A stretch of 37,663 bases of DNA from Holophagaceae bacterium. Its GTDB lineage: Bacteria; Acidobacteriota; Holophagae; Holophagales; Holophagaceae. The stretch covers positions 10,435 through 48,097 of the forward strand of contig PMJK01000047.1 in assembly GCA_003158505.1 (NCBI GenBank), written 5' to 3'. Under the pieces are notes generated by a model. It was not told where the DNA came from. It ran no database searches and worked only from the letters and a program-made list of their open reading frames with translations. Position numbers and translations under genes: made by a program. Shown in pieces: positions 8,029-25,873 of this stretch (positions are counted from its first letter, which is position 1; every line of letters begins with the position of its first letter).

Positions 8029-8103
8029 TGGTAGTCCCAAGGGGAATCGAACCCCTGTTCCCGCCGTGAGAGGGCGGTGTACTGACCGCTATACGATGGG
8101 ACC
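8029..8103 (-). tRNA. tRNA-Glu (anticodon CTC)
   Basis: Reverse complement GGTCCCATCGTATAGCGGTCAGTACACCGCCCT-CTC-ACGGCGGGAACAGGGGTTCGATTCCCCTTGGGACTACCA: cloverleaf, TTCGA loop, encoded CCA. Confidence 0.96.
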
Positions 8104-8120
8104 ATCGATCAAGTTGTGAA

Positions 8121-8195
8121 TGGTTGGGGAGGAAGGATTTGAACCCTCACCTGACGGTACCAGAAACCGTTGTCCTACCATTAGACCACTCCCCA
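8121..8195 (-). tRNA. tRNA-Gln (anticodon CTG)
   Basis: Reverse complement TGGGGAGTGGTCTAATGGTAGGACAACGGTTT-CTG-GTACCGTCAGGTGAGGGTTCAAATCCTTCCTCCCCAACCA: cloverleaf, encoded CCA. Confidence 0.96.
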
Positions 8196-13363: not shown

Positions 13364-15256
13364 CTACTTCTGGCCCTTTCCCTGGTGGGCCAGGATCTGC
13401 TCCATCTCATCCATGATGATGTTCATCTCCGCTATGGCCTTATCGAAGGGAGCCGAGGTGGTCATGTCCACGCCAGCATCCTTAAGGAGGTCGATGGCGG
13501 GCTTGGAGCTGCCCGAGGAGAGCATGCCGAGGTAGGCATCGCGGACCTTGGTGCCGCCTGCCTTCTGTTCCTCGCGGATCGCCTTGGCGATGCTCGTGGA
13601 GGCCACCATGCTGGTGGAGTACTGGAAGACGTAGAAGTCGTAGTAGAAGTGAGGGATGTAGGCCCATTCCACCGCCATCAGATCATCGACCTGGCAGATG
13701 CCCTGGTCGTGGCCATAGTAGTCGCGAAGCAGCTTGAGGTAGAGCTCGGAGAGCGTCTCGCCCGTGATGGGCTCGCCGCGCTCCGCCCGTTGGTGGACCT
13801 GCAACTCGAAATCGGCGAAGAGCGCCTGCCGGAAGAGGGTCTGGCGCAAGCCGTCGAGGGCGTTCCCCAGCAGCGCGAGCCGGGTGGAGTCATCCTTGGC
13901 CTTCCCGAGCATGTGGTGGAGCAGCAGGTTCTCGTTGAGGGTCGAGGCCACCTCGGCCACGAAGATGGGGTATTCCGAGGTCTGGAAGGGCTGGTGCTGG
14001 TAGGAGAGGTAGGTGTGCATTGAGTGGCCGCTCTCATGGGCCAGGGTCGAGACATCGTCGTATTGCCCGTTGAAGTTGAGCAGCTGGAAGGGGTGGATGC
14101 CGTAGACGCCGGTCGAGTAGGCGCCGGAACGCTTGCCGGTGCTGGGCAGGTAGTCGGTCCAGCGGCTTTCAAACCCCTTCTTGAGGACCGCCACGTAGGG
14201 CGCGCCCAGGGGAGCTAGCGCCTCCAGGGTGATGGCGCGGGCCTCGTCCGGTTCGAAGCGCAGATCCACCCTCCCGACCATGGGCACGTAGAGATCCTGG
14301 TAGCGGAGCTTCTCGAGGCCCAGCATGCGCTGCCGCAGTCTGAGGAAGCGGTGCAGGCTGGGTAGGCTGCGCCGAACGTCGGCCACCAGCTGCGTGTAGA
14401 CGGTGGTGGGGATGTCATTCTGGAACAGGGCCGCCGCGAGGGCACTGTCGAAGCGGTGGACCTTGGCATCGAAGAGGTGGCCCTTCACCTGGGCGTCGAG
14501 CGTGGTCCCGAAGGTGCGTTCGAAGCCCTTCAGGGTGACGAAGAAGCTCTGGAAGGCCAGGTCGCGGTCGGCCTTGACCTTCGAGGCGCGGTAGAGCGTG
14601 AAGGCGGCGGTGTCGAGCCGAACTTCGCCCGTGGAGAACTTCACGGTCGGGTAGGGCAGGTCGGCGTCCTTGAGGGTGCCGTAGCTGGTCTGACCCGTGT
14701 CAGTGAGATCGCTGGCCAGCGCCGCCACCTGTTCCTCGGAGGCTGAGAGCGTGTGCGGCTTCCAGCGCAGCACATCATCCAGGAAGACGCGGTAGGGGGC
14801 CAGCTTCGGCTCCTGGGCCAGGAAGCCACGCACTTTGGCCGGGTCGAGGGAAAGAATCTCCGGCCGGATCCAGGCGGTGGCGGAAGCGAGGTCCACACTG
14901 AGCTTCTGGGCCCCCTGCTTGAGCTCGCGGGGCCTGGTCAGGCGGGTGTCCTCGTCCGAACGGGAGCTGGCATAGACCGAGAGCTTGGCCAGGTCGATCT
15001 GGATGGCAGTCACGGCTTCGAGCCCGGCCAGCAGCGCCGAGGCCGAGTCGCCCAAGTGGCCCCGGTGCGCAGCCAGACCCGGAAGGCGGGCGGCTGCCGC
15101 GGCGCGCGTCTGTTCCCAGGCCTGCTCGGTGGCGAAGATGTCCTCCAGCTGCCACTTGTACTTTTCCGGTATCACTGAGCGTTCCCCGGTCAGGGCAGGG
15201 CTTGCGATTCCTGCGCAGAGAGCGAGGGTGAGGAATTGGTGGACGGGCTTTCGCAT
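13364..15256 (-). CDS. pepF: Oligoendopeptidase F (peptidase M3B) with signal peptide
   Basis: YKWQLEDIF, GKRSGAYS, LAHESGHSMH (HExxH), FVAEVAST, WAYIPHFY..FYVFQY. Confidence 0.93.
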   Translation of the reverse strand: MRKPVHQFLTLALCAGIASPALTGERSVIPEKYKWQLEDIFATEQAWEQTRAAAAARLPGLAAHRGHLGDSASALLAGLEAVTAIQIDLAKLSVYASSRSDEDTRLTRPRELKQGAQKLSVDLASATAWIRPEILSLDPAKVRGFLAQEPKLAPYRVFLDDVLRWKPHTLSASEEQVAALASDLTDTGQTSYGTLKDADLPYPTVKFSTGEVRLDTAAFTLYRASKVKADRDLAFQSFFVTLKGFERTFGTTLDAQVKGHLFDAKVHRFDSALAAALFQNDIPTTVYTQLVADVRRSLPSLHRFLRLRQRMLGLEKLRYQDLYVPMVGRVDLRFEPDEARAITLEALAPLGAPYVAVLKKGFESRWTDYLPSTGKRSGAYSTGVYGIHPFQLLNFNGQYDDVSTLAHESGHSMHTYLSYQHQPFQTSEYPIFVAEVASTLNENLLLHHMLGKAKDDSTRLALLGNALDGLRQTLFRQALFADFELQVHQRAERGEPITGETLSELYLKLLRDYYGHDQGICQVDDLMAVEWAYIPHFYYDFYVFQYSTSMVASTSIAKAIREEQKAGGTKVRDAYLGMLSSGSSKPAIDLLKDAGVDMTTSAPFDKAIAEMNIIMDEMEQILAHQGKGQK

Positions 15257-15376
15257 GGGGTTGGTCCTTTCGGGAGGGCGCTGACCTTCGGTTCGGGATT
15301 CAATTACATCATTTTCAACTGAGCCAAGCTCCCACCTGCCCGGTTGCCTTGATTTTGACCATGTCCGGGTCTTTTG

Positions 15377-15412
15377 ATTTAGGATTGACGAGTCCTAAAT
15401 ATAAACTACGAT
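15377..15412 (+). promoter_or_regulatory. Candidate sigma70 promoter of nrfHA with an overlapping palindromic operator
   Basis: ATTTAGGA-TTGACGAG-TCCTAAAT (8-bp perfect IR, 15377-15400) enclosing -35 TTGACG (15385-15390); -10-like TACGAT at 15407-15412, 16-bp spacer. Confidence 0.55.
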
Positions 15413-15456
15413 ATCCAGGTGCCAGGCCACTGCTCGGCACCTCGAATGGATGCCCC

Positions 15457-15954
15457 GTGAGTGGAAAGCGCCGATTCCTCTTCTTAAGCCTGGCAGCCTG
15501 TGTCTTCCTGGGGGTGTTCCTGGGATCCGGCGCCTACACCTTCGTGTCGGCCCACGGTACCTCGTACCTGTCCAACGATCCCGCGGTCTGCGTGAACTGC
15601 CACATCATGCGGGAGGACTACGACGGGTGGCGGCATGGATCCCATCATGCGGTGGCCACTTGCAACGACTGCCACCTGCCCCACGACAACGTGGTGCATA
15701 AGCTCTTCGTGAAGGCCAGCAACGGCTACCATCACTCGAAGGCCTTCACCCTCCTGGATTTCGCGGAGCCCATCCGTATCAAACCTGGCAATGCCCAGGT
15801 GCTGGAGGACAACTGTCTGCGGTGCCACGCCGAACTGGTCGACGAGATCACCGCCCACGGCACCCTGGGAGTTCCCACGGACCCCACGCAGAAGGCCGAC
15901 CTCTACGGCTGCGTCCGCTGCCACCAGGGCGTGGGCCACGGCCCCACCCGATGA
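15457..15954 (+). CDS. nrfH: Cytochrome c nitrite reductase small subunit NrfH (tetraheme, membrane anchored)
   Basis: TM anchor, SYLSNDP, four heme motifs CVNCH(IM), CNDCH, CLRCH, CVRCH..VGH; GTG at 15457 chosen (ORF open to 15349, but that part overlaps the promoter). Confidence 0.93.
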   Translation: MSGKRRFLFLSLAACVFLGVFLGSGAYTFVSAHGTSYLSNDPAVCVNCHIMREDYDGWRHGSHHAVATCNDCHLPHDNVVHKLFVKASNGYHHSKAFTLLDFAEPIRIKPGNAQVLEDNCLRCHAELVDEITAHGTLGVPTDPTQKADLYGCVRCHQGVGHGPTR

Positions 15955-16018
15955 TCCGCTCTGATTTCCTGAACTTCAACCTGACGATGCGTGCCGCCCA
16001 CACGGGAGGATCCCTCCG

Positions 16019-17509
16019 ATGACCGACAAGCCCACTCCCCTATTCTCCCGTCCCACGGTCCAGATGGGGCTCCTGGCCGCTGGCGCCGCGCTGGCCACTG
16101 TGCTGGTTATGGCCCTGTATTCCAGCATTTCCGGCCACAAGGCCGAAGCCCGGCAGACCAGTTTCAGGGTCGTGGATCTGGACGAAAAAACGGTCGATCC
16201 CGCCCAGTGGGGGAAGAACTTCCCCCGCCAGTACGACGGATACCTGAAGACCACCGAGAAATACGGCACCAAGTACGGAGGCGCCGGGAGCGAGGCCTTT
16301 CCCATCAGCAAGCTGAAGGAGGATCCGCGCCTGCCCATCATCTTCGATGGCTACGCCTTCGCCATCGACTACAACCGGCGTCGGGGCCATGCCTACATGC
16401 TGGACGACCAGAGCAAGACCCGGCGCGTGACGGAGAAGCCCCAGCCGGGCTCCTGCCTCCAATGCCACACCTCCAACACGGTGCTCTACCGGGAGGCGGG
16501 ACTGAAGGCGGGCGCCCCAGGCAGCCTAGACGACCCCTACCTCAGCCCCCAAGGCCAGGCTCAGGTCATGAAGGGCTTCGAGGCCCTGTGCAAGCTGCCC
16601 TATGCGGAGGCGGCCAAGTTGGCGAAGCATCCCATGGGCTGCATCGACTGCCACGACCCCAAGAGCATGCAGCTTCGCGTCACCAAGCCCGGCTTCATCC
16701 GGGGCATCGCCGTCCTGGCCGAGAGCGCCGAACCGGTGCCGCACCTGCCTTCCATCGAGACCTGGCGCAAGGGTGACCGGAAGGCACCCTATGATCCGAA
16801 TACCCAGGCCTCGCGCCAGGAAATGCGGTCCATGGTCTGCGGCCAGTGCCATGTGGAGTACTATTGCGGTCCCAAAACCACCCTGTTCTATCCCTGGAAC
16901 AACGGGCTGAAGGTCGAGCAGGAGGAGGCCTATTACGACAGCTACAAGTTCCCGGACGGCCATCGATTCTACGACTGGAAGCACACCCGGACGGGCGCCG
17001 AGGTGCTCAAGGCCCAGCACCCCGAGTTCGAGATGTGGAGCCAGGGCATCCACGCCCGGTCCGGCGTCTCCTGCGCCGATTGCCACATGCCCTACAAGCG
17101 CGAGGGCGCCATCAAGATCAGCGACCACCAGGTACGCAGCCCCCTGCTCGACATCAGCCGCTCCTGCCAGACCTGCCACCGCTTCCCCGAGGCGGAACTC
17201 AAGGCGCGGGTCGAGGCCATCCAGGACCGCACCAAGGCCTTGCTGGACCGGGCTGAGGAGGCCATCGTCAACCTCATCACGGACATCGAGGCCGCCAAGA
17301 AGGCCGGCCTGGACGAGGCCAGGCTCCAGCCCATCCTCGAACTCCAGCGCAAGGCCCAGTGGCGCGCGGACTGGGTCAATGCCGAGAATTCCATGGGCTT
17401 CCACGCCCCCCAGGAAGCCGCCCGCATCCTCGGCGAGGCCATCGACTTCGGTCGCCAGGGCCAGATCGCGCTGAGGGATCTGGGCGCGGCCAAGGTGGCA
17501 AAGAAGTAG
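16019..17509 (+). CDS. nrfA: Ammonia-forming cytochrome c nitrite reductase NrfA (pentaheme), CxxCH-type
   Basis: WGKNFPRQY, GYAF..DY..RGH, five heme motifs CLQCH, CIDCH, CGQCH(VEYY), CADCH, CQTCH; KAQHPEFE; AENSMGFHAP. Confidence 0.95.
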   Translation: MTDKPTPLFSRPTVQMGLLAAGAALATVLVMALYSSISGHKAEARQTSFRVVDLDEKTVDPAQWGKNFPRQYDGYLKTTEKYGTKYGGAGSEAFPISKLKEDPRLPIIFDGYAFAIDYNRRRGHAYMLDDQSKTRRVTEKPQPGSCLQCHTSNTVLYREAGLKAGAPGSLDDPYLSPQGQAQVMKGFEALCKLPYAEAAKLAKHPMGCIDCHDPKSMQLRVTKPGFIRGIAVLAESAEPVPHLPSIETWRKGDRKAPYDPNTQASRQEMRSMVCGQCHVEYYCGPKTTLFYPWNNGLKVEQEEAYYDSYKFPDGHRFYDWKHTRTGAEVLKAQHPEFEMWSQGIHARSGVSCADCHMPYKREGAIKISDHQVRSPLLDISRSCQTCHRFPEAELKARVEAIQDRTKALLDRAEEAIVNLITDIEAAKKAGLDEARLQPILELQRKAQWRADWVNAENSMGFHAPQEAARILGEAIDFGRQGQIALRDLGAAKVAKK

Positions 17510-20993: not shown

Positions 20994-21110
20994 GACGACC
21001 CCTGTCGACCCGGTCGGCCCCGGGTCAGGCGAGCCGAGGGGAGGTCGCGGGGGGATTCCAGGGTGCAGGATGTAGACTCTGTCTCAGCTTTCCCTTGCTC
21101 AGGAGCTATC

Positions 21111-22400
21111 ATGCAGCTGAGCCAATGGGTTCTTGTCGGTCTACTGGCGATGCCCGCCGTTCTCGCGGCGCAAGCGGCGCCCATGAAAGCCATCCAGGGG
21201 GAGTTGGACCGGATCTACCCCGCCCTGGATGCCCTCTACCTGGACCTGCACCAGCATCCGGAGTTGTCCGGCCAGGAGGTGAAGACGGCCGTGAAGATGG
21301 CCGACCAGATGCGGAAGGCCGGGTTCGAGGTCACCACCGATGTCGGTGGCACCGGCGTGGTGGGCGTGCTGCGGAACGGCCAGGGGCCGACCCTCCTCCT
21401 CCGTACGGAACTGGACGCGCTGCCCGTGCAGGAGAAGACGGGGCTGGCTTATGCCAGCCAGGAACCCGGGGTCATGCACGCCTGCGGCCATGACCTCCAC
21501 ATGACCACCTTGACCGGTGCCGCCTCGGTCCTGAACCGTCTGCGGGACCGCTGGCGCGGCACCCTGGTCCTGGTGGCTCAGCCCGCGGAAGAGACCGTGG
21601 GCGGCGCCCGGGCCATGATCGCGGATGGTCTCTTCACCCGGTTCCCGAGACCCGATTTCGCCCTGGCGATCCACGACAGCGGCAGTGTCCCCGCGGGCCG
21701 GATCGCCTGGGTGGAGGGCTACGCCTACGCCAACGTGGACAGCGTGGACATCACCCTCTTCGGCAAGGGCGGCCACGGCGTCGCGCCCCACACCACGGTG
21801 GATCCCATCGTCCTCGCGGCCCGGACCATCCTCGCCCTGCAGACCCTCATCGCCCGGGAAAAGGACCCCATGGAACCCGGCGTGATCACCGTGGGCTCCA
21901 TCCACGCGGGCAACAAACACAACATCATCCCTGACGAGGCCAGGTTGCAGCTGACCGTCCGCAGCTACGCCCCGGCGGTGCGCAAGCAGCTGCTGGACGG
22001 CATCGTCCGCATCGTGAAGGCCGAGGCCACGGCAGGCCATTCCCCCAGGGAGCCCCTCATCGCGTTCAGCGAGGGCCAGGACGCGCTCTACAACGATCCG
22101 GCCTTCACCCGGCGGCTGGTGGCGGCCATCGGTAAAGGTTTGGGACCCGACAACGTGGTGGCGGGCAAGGCTGTCATGGGCGCCGAGGACTTCGGCGAAT
22201 TCGGGAAGGCCGCGGGCATCCCCTCGGCCATGCTCAGCCTCGGGGCCGTGGAACCGGTCCGGTTCAAAGCCGCCCTGGCCTCCGGAGAAGCGCTGCCCTC
22301 GCCCCATTCGCCCCTGTTCGCACCCGACAGGGAACGCAGCATCCGCACCGGCGCGGAGGCACTGATACTAGCGGCACTGGAGGTGCTGGCGGTGCCCTGA
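21111..22400 (+). CDS. M20D family amidohydrolase (hippurate hydrolase/ACY1-like) with signal peptide
   Basis: AGGAG before ATG 21111; LHQHPELS, ELDALP, MHACGHDLH, QPAEE, GGHG..PH, MGAEDF, HSPLF. Confidence 0.92.
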   Translation: MQLSQWVLVGLLAMPAVLAAQAAPMKAIQGELDRIYPALDALYLDLHQHPELSGQEVKTAVKMADQMRKAGFEVTTDVGGTGVVGVLRNGQGPTLLLRTELDALPVQEKTGLAYASQEPGVMHACGHDLHMTTLTGAASVLNRLRDRWRGTLVLVAQPAEETVGGARAMIADGLFTRFPRPDFALAIHDSGSVPAGRIAWVEGYAYANVDSVDITLFGKGGHGVAPHTTVDPIVLAARTILALQTLIAREKDPMEPGVITVGSIHAGNKHNIIPDEARLQLTVRSYAPAVRKQLLDGIVRIVKAEATAGHSPREPLIAFSEGQDALYNDPAFTRRLVAAIGKGLGPDNVVAGKAVMGAEDFGEFGKAAGIPSAMLSLGAVEPVRFKAALASGEALPSPHSPLFAPDRERSIRTGAEALILAALEVLAVP

Positions 22401-22685
22401 GGAAGGATCCAAGCGATCTGGAAGATCAGTCTGTATGAGACCAAGCGCGATCCCATCCATGAACGCACCGCAAGACCTGATGCCGCGACGATATTGAAAA
22501 CGCCGACTATGCCGTAGGCTTCCATACCCCCCAAGGAAGTGGCCCGCTTCCTCAGTGAAGCCATCAGCTTTGACTGTCATGAGCAGGCGGTCATGGGGGA
22601 TTTGATTATTGGTAAGGTCACGAAGAGAGAGCAAAGCTTCAAAAATCAATAGGCGGCGCTGAATCTCTGCGCTCCCTAATATCAT
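22401..22685 (-). other. Compositionally atypical segment, possible gene remnant (ORF 22368-22685 and an overlapping hydrophobic frame)
   Basis: Lower GC than host genes; 105-aa ORF starts 5 nt after GTTAAAC and runs into the amidohydrolase 3' end; no recognisable domain. Confidence 0.3.
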
Positions 22686-22761
22686 TGTCGGTTTAACGAA
22701 ATATGTTTATCGGACCAGGAGCTTGCGCCTTGGGTTGGGTTGAACGCAGAGGTGAAATTCA

Positions 22762-23607
22762 CTAGAAGGGAACTGAAAATGTTTCAAGGTCGGCCAGGAA
22801 GGATTCGACGCCATTATTCTTCCTCGAAAAGCATTTAGCGATAGGCATGATCATTCCTGTCCTTTCAATACGCTGTTTCATCTTGTTGACGCGTTCCACC
22901 CATGGCCCATCAAGCAGGACATAGTCACAACAATTTATCGGCATGGCCGCGTGCATTAGGTCAATGACATCATTTTTGGAGATTGATGCTGAACTGTCCA
23001 AGGTAAATCCTCGAAACAGCTCTCCCAAAATGACCATAGTTCTAGTTCGGTTATTGCCCGGGAGAGTAATCTTTGCCTTTCGAAGGTAATCGGAATCTTC
23101 CCGAATAGATTTGTGCCCTTCAATGATCATCTGGGTAACTTCGTCGATCGTTCGTGTCAGATCATTACGATTGATGTGAGTCATTGAGATGAAGCCTTCC
23201 ATGGTAAATCCATGGGGAGCGTCTTGGGCACGCTCCGCGAAGAGTTTGAGTTGTGGCAAATCAGCAGAAGGCCAAAACCTGCGGAGGCTGTTTTGTTCAC
23301 CTAGTTCTTGCTCATGAACCTTGTCCAGCGCAAAGTCCGTAAGAAACAGATTTGGCAAAAGGCGTTCAATAAATTGTTCTGCATTTGAACAATGTCGAGC
23401 ATCTTCCGCCCGAGTAAATTCACCGAGAGAAATATTTGAAAGAAGAAGAGTTCCTCCCTTAGACATAAGGGAGTTCACAAGCCGATCTTGAAGATAGTGA
23501 TCGTCAGAAAACAATCGAATAGCCCAATGATCAAGATAGACGGTTGGAGAATCGAAGCTCTGCCTCACATGAACGCCATCAGGAGCATCAAAGAAATTGA
23601 TTGGCAT
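22762..23607 (-). CDS. AT-rich hypothetical protein (281 aa), predicted PIN-like nuclease fold
   Basis: Long ORF in AT-rich DNA; VYLDHW, NISLGEF, NDVIDLMH, CDYVLLD give the D..E..D..D acidic pattern of PIN domains. CDS confident, fold inferred. Confidence 0.7.
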   Translation of the reverse strand: MPINFFDAPDGVHVRQSFDSPTVYLDHWAIRLFSDDHYLQDRLVNSLMSKGGTLLLSNISLGEFTRAEDARHCSNAEQFIERLLPNLFLTDFALDKVHEQELGEQNSLRRFWPSADLPQLKLFAERAQDAPHGFTMEGFISMTHINRNDLTRTIDEVTQMIIEGHKSIREDSDYLRKAKITLPGNNRTRTMVILGELFRGFTLDSSASISKNDVIDLMHAAMPINCCDYVLLDGPWVERVNKMKQRIERTGMIMPIAKCFSRKNNGVESFLADLETFSVPF

Positions 23608-23617
23608 ATAGTGAAAC

Positions 23618-24676
23618 CTAACGGTATTTGGCCGTCATAGCCTTCAGTGTCTTGGCGATGTGATCCCTCAGCGCTTTAGGCTCGATGACCTCCGCATCGG
23701 CCCCGAACTGCAGAACAAATCGAGTGGGGCCGGACAGTTCGGTGGCGTGGAAGCTCAGCAGTACGGTGCCGCCCTTTTCTTTGCGGACCGTGACGCCAGG
23801 CAGGGCGGGGGGGGCGTCCTGGAGGGCCTGGGGCCAGTTGGTGCCGCCGACGCGCACGCTCACGCGGAAGGGCGCCCCGGGGCTGAACCAGCCGCCGATC
23901 TGCAGGTCCCGGGCCTGCTCCATGGGGACCTTGTCAGGGATGAGGCCGCGCTTGCTGAGGGCCTTCGCCTCCTCGATGCGGGCCAGGCGGAAGTGCCGAG
24001 GTTCCTGCTTGGCGGGGTCCCAGGCCAGGAGGAAGGCGCCGCCGGAAAACACATCGTGGGTCAGGGTGAAGGGCACGACGGTACGGGCGCTGGTGCGCCC
24101 CGTGGACGCGGCCTTGTAGGTCAGCTCCAGCTCGCGGGGCCCTTCGGGATGGCCCAGGGCCAGCAGGACCTGGGTGAGCATTTTGGTGTCCAGGGCCTGC
24201 TGGTCGTCGGCGCCGCCGCGCACGCAGACGTGCGCCTGCAGGGCGCGGAAGAGATCCCGGTCGCGGGTGCTGAGGTGGCTGTCCGCCAGGGTGCGCAGGC
24301 CCTCCAGCTGATCGAACCAGAGCTCCGTAGCGGTGCCTTTCAGGGCCATGAGGGCAACCTCGAGTGCCATGCGGGCGTGGGGCGTGATGCGGCTATCCCA
24401 GTCCGGGGCCTTCTCCAAGGTGAAGTGGATGAGCGCGGGCCGGCCCTCCCGGCCCTTGCCGAAGCGGGCGCCCTGCTCCTCCAGCAACTGGATGGCACGA
24501 TCCACCGTGCGCATGGCCACGTCGCCTAGGCGGCGGGCTAGGCCCGCCTTGGTGATGCCCCGTCCTCCGGCATCGCGAATGGCCTCCAGCACCACCTGCA
24601 GCCGCTCCGGCTTCACCAGGTGGCCGCCGTCGGGCCGGGGGGATTCGAGGACTTTGCGGGACGCGGGACGGGTCAT
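23618..24676 (-). CDS. HTH-WYL-WCX transcriptional regulator (PafBC/DriD/BrxR/CapW-like)
   Basis: wHTH LARRLGDVAMRTVDRAIQLL; WYL core LTY..RTVVP..AFLLAWD..RHFRLARI; WCX VLQFGADAEVIEPKALR; GGAGG before ATG 24676. Confidence 0.9.
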   Translation of the reverse strand: MTRPASRKVLESPRPDGGHLVKPERLQVVLEAIRDAGGRGITKAGLARRLGDVAMRTVDRAIQLLEEQGARFGKGREGRPALIHFTLEKAPDWDSRITPHARMALEVALMALKGTATELWFDQLEGLRTLADSHLSTRDRDLFRALQAHVCVRGGADDQQALDTKMLTQVLLALGHPEGPRELELTYKAASTGRTSARTVVPFTLTHDVFSGGAFLLAWDPAKQEPRHFRLARIEEAKALSKRGLIPDKVPMEQARDLQIGGWFSPGAPFRVSVRVGGTNWPQALQDAPPALPGVTVRKEKGGTVLLSFHATELSGPTRFVLQFGADAEVIEPKALRDHIAKTLKAMTAKYR

Positions 24677-24742
24677 GGCGACCTCCGGACCCAGGATTGG
24701 CCAGCCAATGTCCAATGACAAGGGCTAGTTGTCGGGGCCGGA

Positions 24743-25873
24743 TCATCGGCCCAGGTGGAGTAGGTAGCCGGTCAGGCCCCCTCCGGCGATCACCCAGGTA
24801 GTGTTGACGCGCTGGCGGATGAGCAGCCAGGCGGCGGCTATGCCCAGGGCCACCGTCCAGGGCGAGGCCAGGGTGGCCCGGCCAAGGTCCCAGAGGGCCG
24901 TGGCCATGAGGCCCACGGCGGCGGCGTTCACTCCCTTCATGAAGGCCGAGACGGATGGTGACTTTCTGATCCGCGGCAGGAAGAATGCTCCGGCGCCCAC
25001 CAGCAGGAAGGCCGGCAGGAAGATGCCCATGGTGGCCACCAGGGCCCCGCGCCAGGAACCCAGCAGGTAGCCGATGAAGGTGGCTGTGGTGAACACGGGA
25101 CCCGGCGTCACCTGGCCCACGGCCACCGCGTCCAGCAGCTGCGTCTCCGTCAGCCAGCCCAGGCGATGCACCAGGTCGGTCCGCAGGTAGGCGATGAGCA
25201 CATAGCCGCTGCCGAAGAGGGTCGCGCCCACTTTCAGGAATACCCAGAAGAGACCACCCAGGCTGAAGGGCGCGGCCAGGGCTGGAAGTCCCGGCAACGG
25301 GAGCAGGGCCATTCCCAGGACGGATCCTGGGCGGGGCCGGGCGAGCATGAGGGAGATGACGCCGGCCCCCAGGATGAGCAGTGCCTCCTGGATGCCGAGA
25401 AAGCTCGACGCCAGGACCGCCAGGCCGAGCAGGACGTTGCGCCAGGTTCGCAGGGCCGAACGGCCCAGGTTCCAGACGGCCTGGGCTACGATGGCCAGCA
25501 CCACGGGCTTGATGCCCAGCAGGAACCCCTGGGCCGCGGGAAGCCGACCGAAGTGCACATAGAGCACGGCGAAGCCCAGGGTGAGCAGGGCCGCGGGCAC
25601 GATGAAGCAGAGGCCTGCCAGCACCAGTCCGCGCCATCCGGCCAGGGTGCGGCCGATGAAGATGGCCAGCTCCGTGGAATTGGGCCCGGGCAGCAGGTTG
25701 CAGAGGCCCAGGAGATCCAGGAAGGCAGCGTGGTCCATCCACTTCCGGCGGCGGACGACCTCCTCCTCCATCATGGCGATGTGGGCCGCGGGACCGCCGA
25801 AGGCCGTGAGGCCGAGCTTCAGGAAGAGCCCCGCGAGGGACTTCAGATGGCGCGGTGCCTGGACCTCATCCAT
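24743..25873 (-). CDS. chrA: Chromate efflux transporter (long-chain CHR family)
   Basis: FLKLGLTAFGGPAAHIAMM, LPGPNSTE, FGSGYVL, GQVTPGPVFTTATFIGY. Confidence 0.93.
   Translation of the reverse strand: MDEVQAPRHLKSLAGLFLKLGLTAFGGPAAHIAMMEEEVVRRRKWMDHAAFLDLLGLCNLLPGPNSTELAIFIGRTLAGWRGLVLAGLCFIVPAALLTLGFAVLYVHFGRLPAAQGFLLGIKPVVLAIVAQAVWNLGRSALRTWRNVLLGLAVLASSFLGIQEALLILGAGVISLMLARPRPGSVLGMALLPLPGLPALAAPFSLGGLFWVFLKVGATLFGSGYVLIAYLRTDLVHRLGWLTETQLLDAVAVGQVTPGPVFTTATFIGYLLGSWRGALVATMGIFLPAFLLVGAGAFFLPRIRKSPSVSAFMKGVNAAAVGLMATALWDLGRATLASPWTVALGIAAAWLLIRQRVNTTWVIAGGGLTGYLLHLGR

What the first reader, a model, noticed from the sequence alone, without database searches (positions are those of the whole stretch)
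22762..24676. WYL regulator followed 10 bp later by an AT-rich PIN-like gene: candidate defence/toxin module
Seen: GC-rich HTH-WYL-WCX gene, stop at 23618, then ATG at 23607 of a sharply AT-richer 281-aa ORF bearing YLD...E...ND.ID..H...DY...D; the last ~50 WYL codons also look less GC-biased. Known: WYL regulators (BrxR, CapW, DriD, PafBC) sense nucleic acids/DNA damage and often control anti-phage genes; PIN domains are RNase toxins/effectors. Inference: a foreign stand-alone PIN RNase, with no visible antitoxin, placed under a damage-responsive promoter; the slot behind the WYL gene may be a variable cargo hotspot.
Basis: partly seen in the sequence, partly recalled or inferred. Interest (0 to 1): 0.74.

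Follow-up and report, generated by a model that had tools for sequence, protein, structure and literature searches.

The report
Stranded integron cassette behind WYL gene
The AT-rich gene behind the WYL regulator is a PIN-like (probable nuclease) gene of a large unnamed family that travels as an integron gene cassette; here one copy has landed exactly on the regulator's stop codon and become stuck, so the pairing looks like an insertion accident and not a conserved defence module.

Summary
A GC-rich HTH-WYL-WCX gene (23618-24721, -) is followed 10 nt later by a 281-aa ORF (22762-23607, -) at 45% GC, against about 69% in the flanks.

The ORF matches no Pfam, NCBIfam, PADLOC or PHROG model. A confident AlphaFold model matches only PIN domains at the top of the list (VapC and relatives, Z up to 7.9). 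The family is large (758 clusters at 50% identity) and under purifying selection (dN/dS about 0.1).

The interpretation needs revising. No relative keeps a conserved neighbour, and none of 21 other loci has a WYL gene nearby. In a same-genus genome the gene is cassette 2 of an integron array with four attC sites. The window's genome has two integron integrases and more than 20 attC sites.

In the window the cassette's 5' core site GTTAGGT overlaps the WYL stop codon. The WYL gene is core in the genus and keeps its native C-terminus. The cassette's attC is only a non-folding vestige. Only 2 of 62 genus genomes carry the gene, and only this one has it next to WYL. Independent metagenome contigs bridge both junctions.

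Best reading: a cassette inserted at a secondary genomic (attG-type) site, then immobilised, and probably read through from the WYL promoter. An earlier first-stage note in this scan (e1-5456609) had already flagged the GTTRRRY junctions on this same stretch.

The parts
23618..24721 (-). HTH-WYL-WCX regulator gene, core in the genus. Its last sense codon (CGT) and stop codon (TAG) overlap the cassette core site. An alternative start is the ATG at 24676.
   Evidence: Pfam WYL and WCX. Orthologues at 79-91% identity in 24/24 sampled genus genomes, all ending ...Y-R-stop.
23616..23622 (-). Left junction: GTTAGGT (a GTTRRRY integron core site). The inferred crossover lies between G 23622 and T 23621. 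The T of the Arg codon and the TAG stop of WYL would then come from the cassette.
   Evidence: Sequence. Same position and spacing as GTTAGGC, 8 nt before the ATG, in the same-genus cassette L001. DNA homology with L001 starts here, 15 nt before the ATG. The host attI and attC sites end in GTTAGGC.
22697..23621 (-). Inferred cassette-derived insert (925 nt): an 8-nt leader, the PIN-like ORF and the attC vestige.
   Evidence: Left end as above. The right end is inferred from the vestige and the GTT at 22695-22697; it is not proven.
22762..23607 (-). 281-aa PIN-like ORF (GC 0.45). Its core resembles VapC. It carries an N-terminal beta-hairpin and a helical insertion of about 110 aa (residues about 100-210).
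   Evidence: AF2 pLDDT 87, pTM 0.86. The top 36 structural matches are all PIN-fold domains, Z 7.6-7.9, rmsd 3.2-3.3 A over 126-127 of 133-134 VapC residues. 228 homologues and 758 clusters. dN/dS about 0.1.
22691..22761 (-). Degenerate attC vestige: weak matches to the 5' and 3' halves of the host attC type, with the central part missing, ending in GTTAAAC (22691-22697).
   Evidence: Half-site similarity P about 0.015 (shuffles) and 0.044 (genome windows). It does not fold (-3.0 kcal/mol, z +0.4) and the attC covariance model gives only 4.4 bits, E 1.6.
22430..22652 (+). Frameshifted, AT-drifted remnant of the 3' end of an nrfA-like cytochrome c nitrite reductase gene, convergent with WYL as in relatives.
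   Evidence: tblastx and alignment: 61-64% nt identity to the genus nrfA 3' ends, a 1-nt insertion, the stop codon lost, GC 0.52. In five relatives nrfA lies convergent within 1 kb of WYL.
21100..22400 (+). Host-GC peptidase-like gene forming the right flank (called 'M20' in the working notes from its sequence; no family scan was run on it). Homology with the nearest relative ends at 22409.
   Evidence: 82% nt identity to G018, where it sits in a different genomic context.

Best explanation
The 281-aa gene belongs to a large, unnamed family of ~280-aa proteins with a PIN-like (VapC-type) nuclease fold interrupted by a helical insertion. The family moves between bacteria as a single-gene integron cassette. 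The host here is a peat/permafrost Acidobacteriota MAG with two integron integrases and a pool of ~124-nt attC sites. One such cassette was recombined outside the integrons into a GTT triplet at the very end of a genus-core WYL regulator gene. This is an attC x secondary-site ('attG'-type) insertion. Because the cassette begins with TTAGGT, it re-created the last base of the Arg codon and a TAG stop, leaving the WYL protein unchanged. It also placed its own ATG 10 nt downstream with no promoter or terminator between. The attC then decayed (central deletion, AT-biased drift), which immobilised the cassette, while the ORF stayed intact under selection. Shown: fold, family size, cassette status of relatives, left junction, integrases, uniqueness of the WYL adjacency, and reality of the assembly. 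Inferred: the exact right junction, the integrase as the agent, co-transcription or translational coupling with WYL, and Mg-dependent nuclease activity with a toxin or defence-type role that is kept harmless until triggered, possibly by the inserted helical domain.
For: Family and fold: no Pfam, NCBIfam, PADLOC or PHROG hit. AF2 pLDDT 87. The top 36 rows in two structural searches are all PIN-fold domains, and the first unrelated fold appears at Z 4.8-5.3. D26 and D233 are invariant or nearly so even at 25-48% identity.

Cassette status of relatives: no conserved neighbour in 19 loci, and DNA homology is confined to the ORF plus 15 nt upstream. L001 (= G049, same genus) has the gene between two attC sites in an array of four (114, 78, 69 and 16 bits), followed by a BrnT/BrnA-type pair, of which only BrnA scored weakly. 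An upstream GTTNNNN is matched by its reverse complement ending in AAC after the stop in 9/17 loci, against 1.3 expected (0 of 500 permutations), with exact matches in 4. Canonical attC hairpins follow the gene in L003 and L012.

Host: two integrases at 434 and 430 bits against a cut-off of 265. attI ends in GTTAGGC, and there are at least 22 attC 3' halves.

Junction: GTTAGGT overlaps the WYL stop. The orthologues sampled end natively in ...TACCGN-stop.

Uniqueness: 2/62 genus genomes carry the gene, and in G049 WYL is on another contig.

Literature: integrases insert cassettes at genomic 5'-GWT-3' sites. Such cassettes are expressed when near resident promoters, and they may be domesticated by loss of attC (10.1101/2022.09.11.507474).

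Assembly and a hint of expression.
Against: No functional attC is detectable at the 3' end in the window. The vestige is only weakly significant (P about 0.015-0.044), so the right junction, and hence integrase-mediated insertion, is not proven. The flanking nrfA remnant is also low in GC (0.52) and equidistant from all genus nrfA genes. The whole 1.2-kb low-GC block could therefore have arrived together by another route. The PIN assignment rests on fold only (Z below 8); no sequence-level match to PIN profiles was found. E63 falls below 90% conservation in the wider family. Transcription with WYL is not shown: RNA-library contigs cover parts of the ORF and the vestige region but not WYL, and they may come from contaminating DNA.
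Confidence: 0.6

Rival explanations
1. A genuine WYL-controlled toxin or defence module: the WYL protein senses nucleic acid or damage and has evolved to control the PIN-like effector as a functional pair.
For: The genes are co-oriented, 10 nt apart, with no intervening promoter-like or terminator-like site. The arrangement is stable across 15 peat and permafrost runs from about 10 studies. The ORF is intact and the family is under purifying selection. WYL regulators are known to control defence genes (general knowledge of BrxR, CapW, DriD and PafBC).
Against: There is no co-occurrence anywhere else: 0 of 21 other family loci has a WYL gene within 6 kb. None of the 19 genus WYL orthologues whose flank was read has the gene downstream, and in G049 the two are on different contigs. 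The WYL gene is a core gene that predates the insertion. There is no PADLOC model hit for the ORF.
Confidence: 0.15
2. The whole low-GC block (about 22410-23620: the nrfA 3' remnant plus the PIN-like gene) came in as one piece. The route would be homologous or illegitimate recombination with DNA from a lower-GC organism, or it is the last remnant of a decayed cassette array at this site. On this view the GTTAGGT border is inherited from the donor's cassette context and does not mark a de novo integrase event here.
For: The attC is not functional. The nrfA remnant has GC 0.52 and is an outgroup to all genus nrfA 3' ends (61-64% identity). There is a slight drop in GC and identity in the last ~100 nt of WYL. 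The locus is rearranged relative to the nearest relative.
Against: Homology with the same-genus cassette begins exactly at the core site. The WYL 3' end is not exceptional in private substitutions. The remnant lies at the native position relative to WYL (convergent nrfA in five relatives), so it is explained more simply as a decaying host pseudogene. There is no second cassette and no attC hit anywhere in the window.
Confidence: 0.2
3. The protein is not an active nuclease: a PIN-like or Rossmann-like scaffold with another role such as binding or regulation. Alternatively the fold match reflects only a common alpha/beta arrangement.
For: Z scores are below 8, and the tool's own note says such values can reflect common arrangements. 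No PIN HMM match. A stand-alone active PIN toxin with no antitoxin should be harmful to its host.
Against: The 36 best matches are all PIN-fold domains and each covers over 90% of a VapC chain. Acidic residues sit at the expected ends of strands 1 and 4 and at the start of the preceding helix, and they are invariant (D26, D216, D233).
Confidence: 0.2

Closest known systems
Isolated integron cassettes (SALIN) and attC x attG genomic insertion (Loot et al., bioRxiv 10.1101/2022.09.11.507474)
   Same: A single promoterless cassette ORF lies outside any integron in a genome that encodes integron integrases. GTT (5'-GWT-3') is present at the junctions. It is placed just downstream of a resident gene, from which it can be expressed. 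The paper itself proposes loss of attC as a route to 'domestication'.
   Different: SALINs are defined by a detectable attC; here the attC is only a non-folding vestige. The insertion is natural and old, not experimental. It sits precisely on a stop codon, so the host gene is untouched.
VapC / PIN-domain toxins of type II toxin-antitoxin systems
   Same: The same core fold by structural comparison (Z 7.6-7.9). Conserved acidic residues at the equivalent strand ends. Found among toxin-antitoxin cassettes in integron arrays.
   Different: Twice the size (281 against about 130 aa), with an N-terminal hairpin and a helical insertion of about 110 aa. No match to Pfam PIN models. No adjacent antitoxin gene in any of 19 loci.
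Phage-defence integron cassettes (bioRxiv 10.1101/2024.07.02.601719, seen as title and abstract only)
   Same: A single-gene cassette of unknown function, predicted to be a nuclease, in cassette arrays alongside toxin-antitoxin pairs.
   Different: No defence phenotype has been tested. No PADLOC model. The family was not found on plasmids or phages, so it appears confined to chromosomal, environmental integrons.
WYL regulators of defence or damage genes (BrxR, CapW, DriD, PafBC)
   Same: HTH-WYL-WCX architecture, with the regulator encoded just upstream of a putative effector.
   Different: Only weak similarity to the solved examples (E about 5e-4 or weaker). This regulator is a core gene whose effector neighbour is unique to one species, so the link is positional and not evolved.

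Membership tests
Integron gene cassette (mobile) | 5' boundary at a GTTRRRY core site, followed by a short leader and one ORF | tested here: met
   GTTAGGT at 23616-23622, 8 nt before the ATG. Same layout as the L001 cassette (GTTAGGC + 8 nt + ATG)..
Integron gene cassette (mobile) | attC recombination site (R''-L''...L'-R' imperfect hairpin) directly after the ORF | tested here: not met
   In the window: attC covariance model 4.4 bits, E 1.6; fold -3.0 kcal/mol, z +0.4; only weak half-site similarity. Met in relatives L001 and L003 and L012. The window copy is therefore called cassette-derived, not a mobile cassette or a SALIN.
Integron gene cassette (mobile) | Integron integrase and other attC sites in the same genome | tested here: met
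   Two TIGR02249 hits above the cut-off. attI and attC next to them, and an array on C62.
attG-type genomic cassette insertion | Insertion at 5'-GWT-3', with relatives showing the uninterrupted site | tested here: inconclusive
   GTT at the left junction and at the proposed right junction. 19 orthologous WYL genes end ...CGN-stop without the insert. No same-species empty site is available and the right junction is uncertain.
PIN-domain nuclease (VapC-like) | PIN alpha/beta/alpha fold with a parallel sheet | tested here: met
   The top 36 matches are all PIN-fold domains, Z up to 7.9, rmsd 3.2 A, 126 of 133 residues. Z below 8, so support is moderate.
PIN-domain nuclease (VapC-like) | Conserved acidic residues forming the metal site | tested here: inconclusive
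   D26, D213/D216 and D233 are invariant or nearly so. E63 is invariant in close homologues but below 90% in the wide family. Positions were assigned from secondary structure, not from a side-chain superposition.
PIN-domain nuclease (VapC-like) | Match to PIN sequence profiles | tested here: not met
   No Pfam hit at E <= 1 for the protein, nor at E <= 0.01 for 36 diverse members. PDB profile search: best PIN hit E 0.48.
Type II VapBC toxin-antitoxin pair | Conserved adjacent small antitoxin gene | tested here: not met
   No ORF cluster of 70 aa or more is shared across the 19 loci other than the gene itself. DNA homology is limited to the ORF. ORFs under 70 aa and RNA antitoxins were not tested exhaustively.
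WYL-regulated defence system (BrxR/CapW type) | Regulator and effector co-occur across genomes | tested here: not met
   0 of 21 other family loci with a WYL gene. None of the 19 genus orthologue flanks read carries the effector. The two are on different contigs in G049.
WYL-regulated defence system (BrxR/CapW type) | Effector matches a known defence model | tested here: not met
   PADLOC: 0 families for the ORF. The WYL protein hits only generic CRISPR-associated WYL models.

The most novel reading that the evidence does not exclude
The family is a new single-polypeptide PIN-like defence or abortive-infection nuclease in which the ~110-aa helical insertion acts as a built-in inhibitor or sensor (a fused toxin-antitoxin logic). 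This locus would then be a natural case of an integron cassette being wired into a host regulator's transcript by insertion on its stop codon, creating a new regulator-effector operon in one step.
Probability: 0.2. Interest if true: 0.7.

Novelty: new member of a known kind. Interest (0 to 1): 0.5.

Why it matters
The finding turns an apparent 'WYL + toxin defence module' into a documented natural example of something so far shown mainly in the laboratory. An integron cassette has left the integron, landed at a GTT in the chromosome and lost its attC. It sits where a resident promoter can drive it, and because it landed on a stop codon the host gene is unharmed. It also flags a large family (hundreds of clusters), strongly conserved and completely unannotated, of PIN-like proteins that circulate as solitary cassettes in environmental integrons. 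This family is a reasonable candidate for functional screening as a nuclease, toxin or phage-defence gene. As a caution for genome mining, adjacency to a WYL regulator is not by itself evidence of a defence system.

Tried and rejected
2. The attC covariance model R1, built from six host attC sites and two from L001, found nothing convincing in the window. The model is specific to the Acidobacteria attC type and did not detect attC sites of other phyla.
3. My own attC scanners were too strict or too noisy: they missed known attC sites. Only the R'/R'' complementarity test and the individual folds were kept.
4. Sequence searches against the PDB with two family profiles gave no significant PIN hit. 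Foldseek alone gave no match at E <= 0.001.
5. No hits in plasmids, none of note in PHROGs, and the protein atlas gave only unnamed clusters.
6. Assembly chimera was rejected.
7. Synteny between the window and the same-genus array through the neighbouring histidine kinase was rejected: the two kinases share 22% identity and are paralogues.
8. A foreign recombination tract reaching into the WYL 3' end is not supported beyond a marginal GC dip.
9. An attC-like R''/R' pair inside the WYL 3' end (ACCGAAC...GTTAGGT, -18.6 kcal/mol) was treated as chance in GC-rich coding DNA.
10. The metagenome scan added only four loci.
Full report
**Observation.** The window holds, on the minus strand, a 367-aa ORF (23618-24721) and, 10 nt after its TAG stop, a 281-aa ORF (22762-23607). 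The first carries Pfam WCX (5.2e-13) and WYL (1.8e-09) domains and a weak N-terminal HTH. GC drops from about 0.70 to about 0.45 exactly at the junction and recovers near 22400; the genome mean is 0.638.

**The 281-aa protein.** It matches no model in Pfam, NCBIfam, PADLOC or PHROGs. It is nonetheless a real, conserved protein.
- 228 homologues at 55-80% identity occur in Acidobacteria, Thermodesulfobacteriota, Chlorobiaceae and many Beta- and Gammaproteobacteria.
- 758 cluster representatives at E <= 0.001 turn up in an exhaustive profile search, nearly all about 280 aa long.
- None of 36 diverse members has a credible Pfam family.
- dN/dS is about 0.1.

An AlphaFold model built on the alignment is confident (pLDDT 87, pTM 0.86). 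A Foldseek-independent search of 48,161 PDB representatives, and a second look at Foldseek's own top 1000, both give lists whose first 36 rows are all PIN-fold domains. These include VapC toxins, the SMG6/EST1A, Nmd4, Rrp44, HARP, Nob1 and Utp24 PIN domains, and one PIN-fold cyclodehydratase. The best is Z 7.6-7.9 at rmsd 3.2-3.3 A over 126-127 of the 133-134 residues of Rickettsia VapC2. The first unrelated fold (class I tRNA synthetases) appears at Z 4.8-5.3.

The secondary-structure order is strand-helix-helix-strand-helix-helix-strand, then a helical insertion at residues about 100-210, then helix-strand-helix-strand-helix. This fits a VapC core split by the insertion, with an extra N-terminal hairpin. 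D26 (end of strand 1), D213/D216 (start of the helix before strand 4) and D233 (after strand 4) are invariant or nearly so, even among members at 25-48% identity. E63 is invariant only among the closer homologues.

I accept 'PIN-like fold, probable metal-dependent nuclease' at about 0.8 for the fold and lower for the activity. No sequence-level link to PIN profiles was obtained.

**How the gene travels.** I fetched 18 genomic loci and later 4 metagenomic ones. No ORF other than the gene itself is shared across them, apart from local synteny among three Thiobacillus genomes. Nucleotide homology with the window is confined to the ORF, extending only 15 nt upstream in the closest case. The neighbours are typical of variable regions. 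Judged by eye from their sequences, they include toxin-antitoxin pairs, restriction-modification genes, a TIR-like protein, a recombinase and transposases; only the L001 neighbours were scanned against a library.

The flanks show integron signatures. GTTAG-type core sites lie 15-37 nt before the ATG, and RYYYAAC boxes lie just after the stop. I tested this in four ways.
1. The window's genome, a 3.29-Mb MAG in 188 contigs, encodes two integron integrases well above the curated TIGR02249 cut-off (434 and 430 bits against 265). None of 14 control genomes reaches the cut-off. Both lie at contig ends, next to an attI ending in GTTAGGC and low-GC cassettes. The genome has a homogeneous ~124-nt attC family with at least 22 recognisable 3' halves, and an array with about nine attC-like 5' matches on contig C62.
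2. A covariance model of this attC type finds four sites in L001. They bracket the PIN-like gene (78 and 114 bits), then a BrnT/BrnA-type pair (69 bits; only BrnA scored, weakly), then a 192-aa ORF (16 bits). L001 proves to be G049, a member of the same genus as the window's organism.
3. In 9 of 17 loci an upstream GTTNNNN heptamer has its reverse complement, ending in AAC, within 80 nt after the stop. This is what a cassette's own R'/R'' pair should look like. The null expectation is 1.3, and none of 500 permutations reached 9. The match is exact in L002, L003, L007 and L060.
4. The sequences after the gene in L003 and L012 fold into canonical attC hairpins: an R-box stem, symmetrical unpaired spacers and a bulged L-box stem (-15.3 and -14.8 kcal/mol; z -2.2 and -2.7).

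The family is therefore carried by integron cassettes. It was not found on plasmids.

**The window copy.** Its 5' end is GTTAGGT followed by 8 nt and the ATG, the same layout as L001 (GTTAGGC, 8 nt, ATG). This heptamer occupies 23616-23622 and contains the WYL stop codon. The inferred crossover point, G|TT, falls inside the last sense codon CG|T.

The WYL gene is a core gene. All 24 genus genomes sampled have an orthologue at 79-91% identity. The 19 whose 3' flank was read end natively in ...TAC-CGN-stop, followed by unrelated, host-GC DNA. So the regulator predates the insert and its protein sequence is unchanged: the cassette supplies the degenerate third base of the Arg codon and a new stop.

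Only 2 of 62 genus genomes carry the PIN-like gene. In the other one (G049) the WYL orthologue is on a different contig from the cassette array. The neighbouring histidine kinases in the two genomes are paralogues at 22% identity, so there is no shared synteny. No WYL-like gene lies within 6 kb of any other family locus.

**The 3' side is less clear.** The 109 nt between the ORF stop and the next recognisable feature contain weak matches to the 5' and 3' halves of the host attC type, in the right order and ending in GTTAAAC (22691-22697). The central part is missing and many G/C positions read A/T. The combined similarity has P about 0.015 against shuffles and 0.044 against random genome windows. 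The stretch does not fold (-3.0 kcal/mol, z +0.4), and the attC model gives only 4.4 bits. I call it a vestige and do not file the window copy as a mobile cassette or a SALIN.

Beyond it, 22430-22652 on the plus strand is a frameshifted remnant of the 3' end of an nrfA-like gene that has lost its stop codon. It has GC 0.52 and 61-64% identity to every genus nrfA. An intact nrfH/nrfA pair lies at 15232-17509. In five relatives nrfA lies convergent within 1 kb of WYL, so the remnant sits at the native position. It is most simply a decaying host pseudogene left by a rearrangement that brought in the kinase and peptidase genes. The alternative, that the whole 1.2-kb low-GC block arrived together, cannot be excluded and is kept as a rival.

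**Reality and expression.** Fifteen peat and permafrost DNA runs from about ten studies hold 83% or more of the sampled words of 22300-23800. One contig from a run not flagged as the possible source spans 21900-23697 with no mismatch, and another spans 23577-23851, so both junctions are real. Contigs from two wetland metatranscriptome libraries match parts of the ORF (22806-22956, 22839-23085) and of the downstream region (22529-22679) at 100%. This is only a hint of transcription, since DNA carry-over is possible and WYL itself is not covered. No promoter-like or terminator-like site lies between WYL and the ORF, and 10 nt leaves no room for one.

**Mechanism proposed.** An integron integrase recombined a circular PIN-like cassette (attC) with a GTT at the WYL stop codon. 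This is the attC x attG route demonstrated experimentally by Loot et al. They report a 5'-GWT-3' target with cleavage after the G, expression of inserted cassettes near resident promoters, many isolated cassettes in genomes, and possible domestication through attC deletion by replication slippage (10.1101/2022.09.11.507474).

The promoterless ORF is then transcribed by read-through from the WYL promoter, or a promoter further upstream. It may be translated by termination-reinitiation 10 nt after the WYL stop; neither this copy nor L001 shows an obvious Shine-Dalgarno sequence (by eye). Loss of a functional attC fixed the gene in place.

What the protein does is inferred only. It is probably a Mg/Mn-dependent nuclease. 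Since it stands alone without an antitoxin in every locus, it is presumably inactive until triggered, and the inserted helical domain and N-terminal hairpin are candidates for that control. Integron cassettes are known to be rich in toxin-antitoxin and phage-defence genes (abstracts seen), which makes a defence or addiction role plausible but untested.

The fold guess, the foreign origin and the absence of an antitoxin are borne out. The idea of an evolved WYL-controlled defence module is not: the association is unique to this species and is explained by the insertion mechanism. The region behind WYL is variable in the genus, but through ordinary rearrangement of host-GC DNA. A separate first-stage note on the same stretch (e1-5456609) had already pointed to GTTRRRY junctions. 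I reached the same reading independently and tested it here.

**Verdict.** This is a cassette-derived, immobilised PIN-like gene fused to the stop codon of a core WYL regulator gene. It is a new member of known kinds (integron cassette, secondary-site insertion, PIN-like superfamily). Two points make it moderately interesting: the scarless stop-codon insertion that creates a de facto operon, and the size and complete lack of annotation of the protein family.

Noticed in passing
G000 contigs C188:26846-27790 and C172:27675-28553 (outside the window); C62:1-12365 (L056): Two full-length integron integrase genes sit at contig ends next to attI (…GTTAGGC) and low-GC cassettes. The contigs break inside a homogeneous ~124-nt attC repeat. 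C62 carries an array with about nine attC-like 5' matches. The integrons are fragmented in this MAG.
   Followed up: partly
window 22430-22652 (+) and 15232-17509 (+): A frameshifted, AT-drifted remnant of an nrfA 3' end lies beside the insert, and an intact nrfH/nrfA pair lies 5 kb away. The kinase and peptidase genes between them look like a later rearrangement. The remnant is equidistant (61-64%) from all genus nrfA genes.
   Followed up: partly
window 24743-25873 (-): The chromate transporter gene (Pfam Chromate_transp, 8e-90) just upstream of WYL is missing at this position in the nearest relative G018, where about 300 bp of a dispersed repeat-like sequence lies instead.
   Followed up: no
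window 23616-23743 (-), inside the WYL 3' end: ACCGAAC ... GTTAGGT, 128 nt apart, form an R''/R'-like pair with a strong fold (-18.6 kcal/mol). ACCGAAC arises from substitutions specific to this species. This is probably chance in GC-rich coding DNA, but it could in principle mimic an attC next to the insertion point.
   Followed up: no
L059 (JGI metagenome contig, 1308 nt): An identical copy of the ORF plus downstream region begins only 4 nt before the ATG, so the assembly breaks at the WYL junction. This could reflect the GC shift, or strain heterogeneity at the junction.
   Followed up: no
L001:5597-8284 (same-genus genome G049): The cassette array lies far from any intact integrase; G049 has only integrase fragments with internal stops. 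Its order is a 97-aa ORF, the PIN-like gene, a BrnT/BrnA-type pair and a 192-aa ORF, with four attC sites in all.
   Followed up: partly
family alignment A3 (residues of the window protein): E101 and D116, at the start of the helical insertion, are conserved in 90% or more of the family even at 25-48% identity. They may extend the active site or make a contact with the insertion.
   Followed up: no
PDB entry 9z7o chain C: A 203-aa chain named 'Escherichia VapC' is the only PIN-named sequence hit of the family profile (E 0.48, residues 42-147 of the profile). It is unusually long for a VapC and may share part of the insertion.
   Followed up: no
window 8029-8195 (-): tRNA-Glu(CTC) and tRNA-Gln(CTG) genes lie in tandem, unrelated to the finding.
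   Followed up: no
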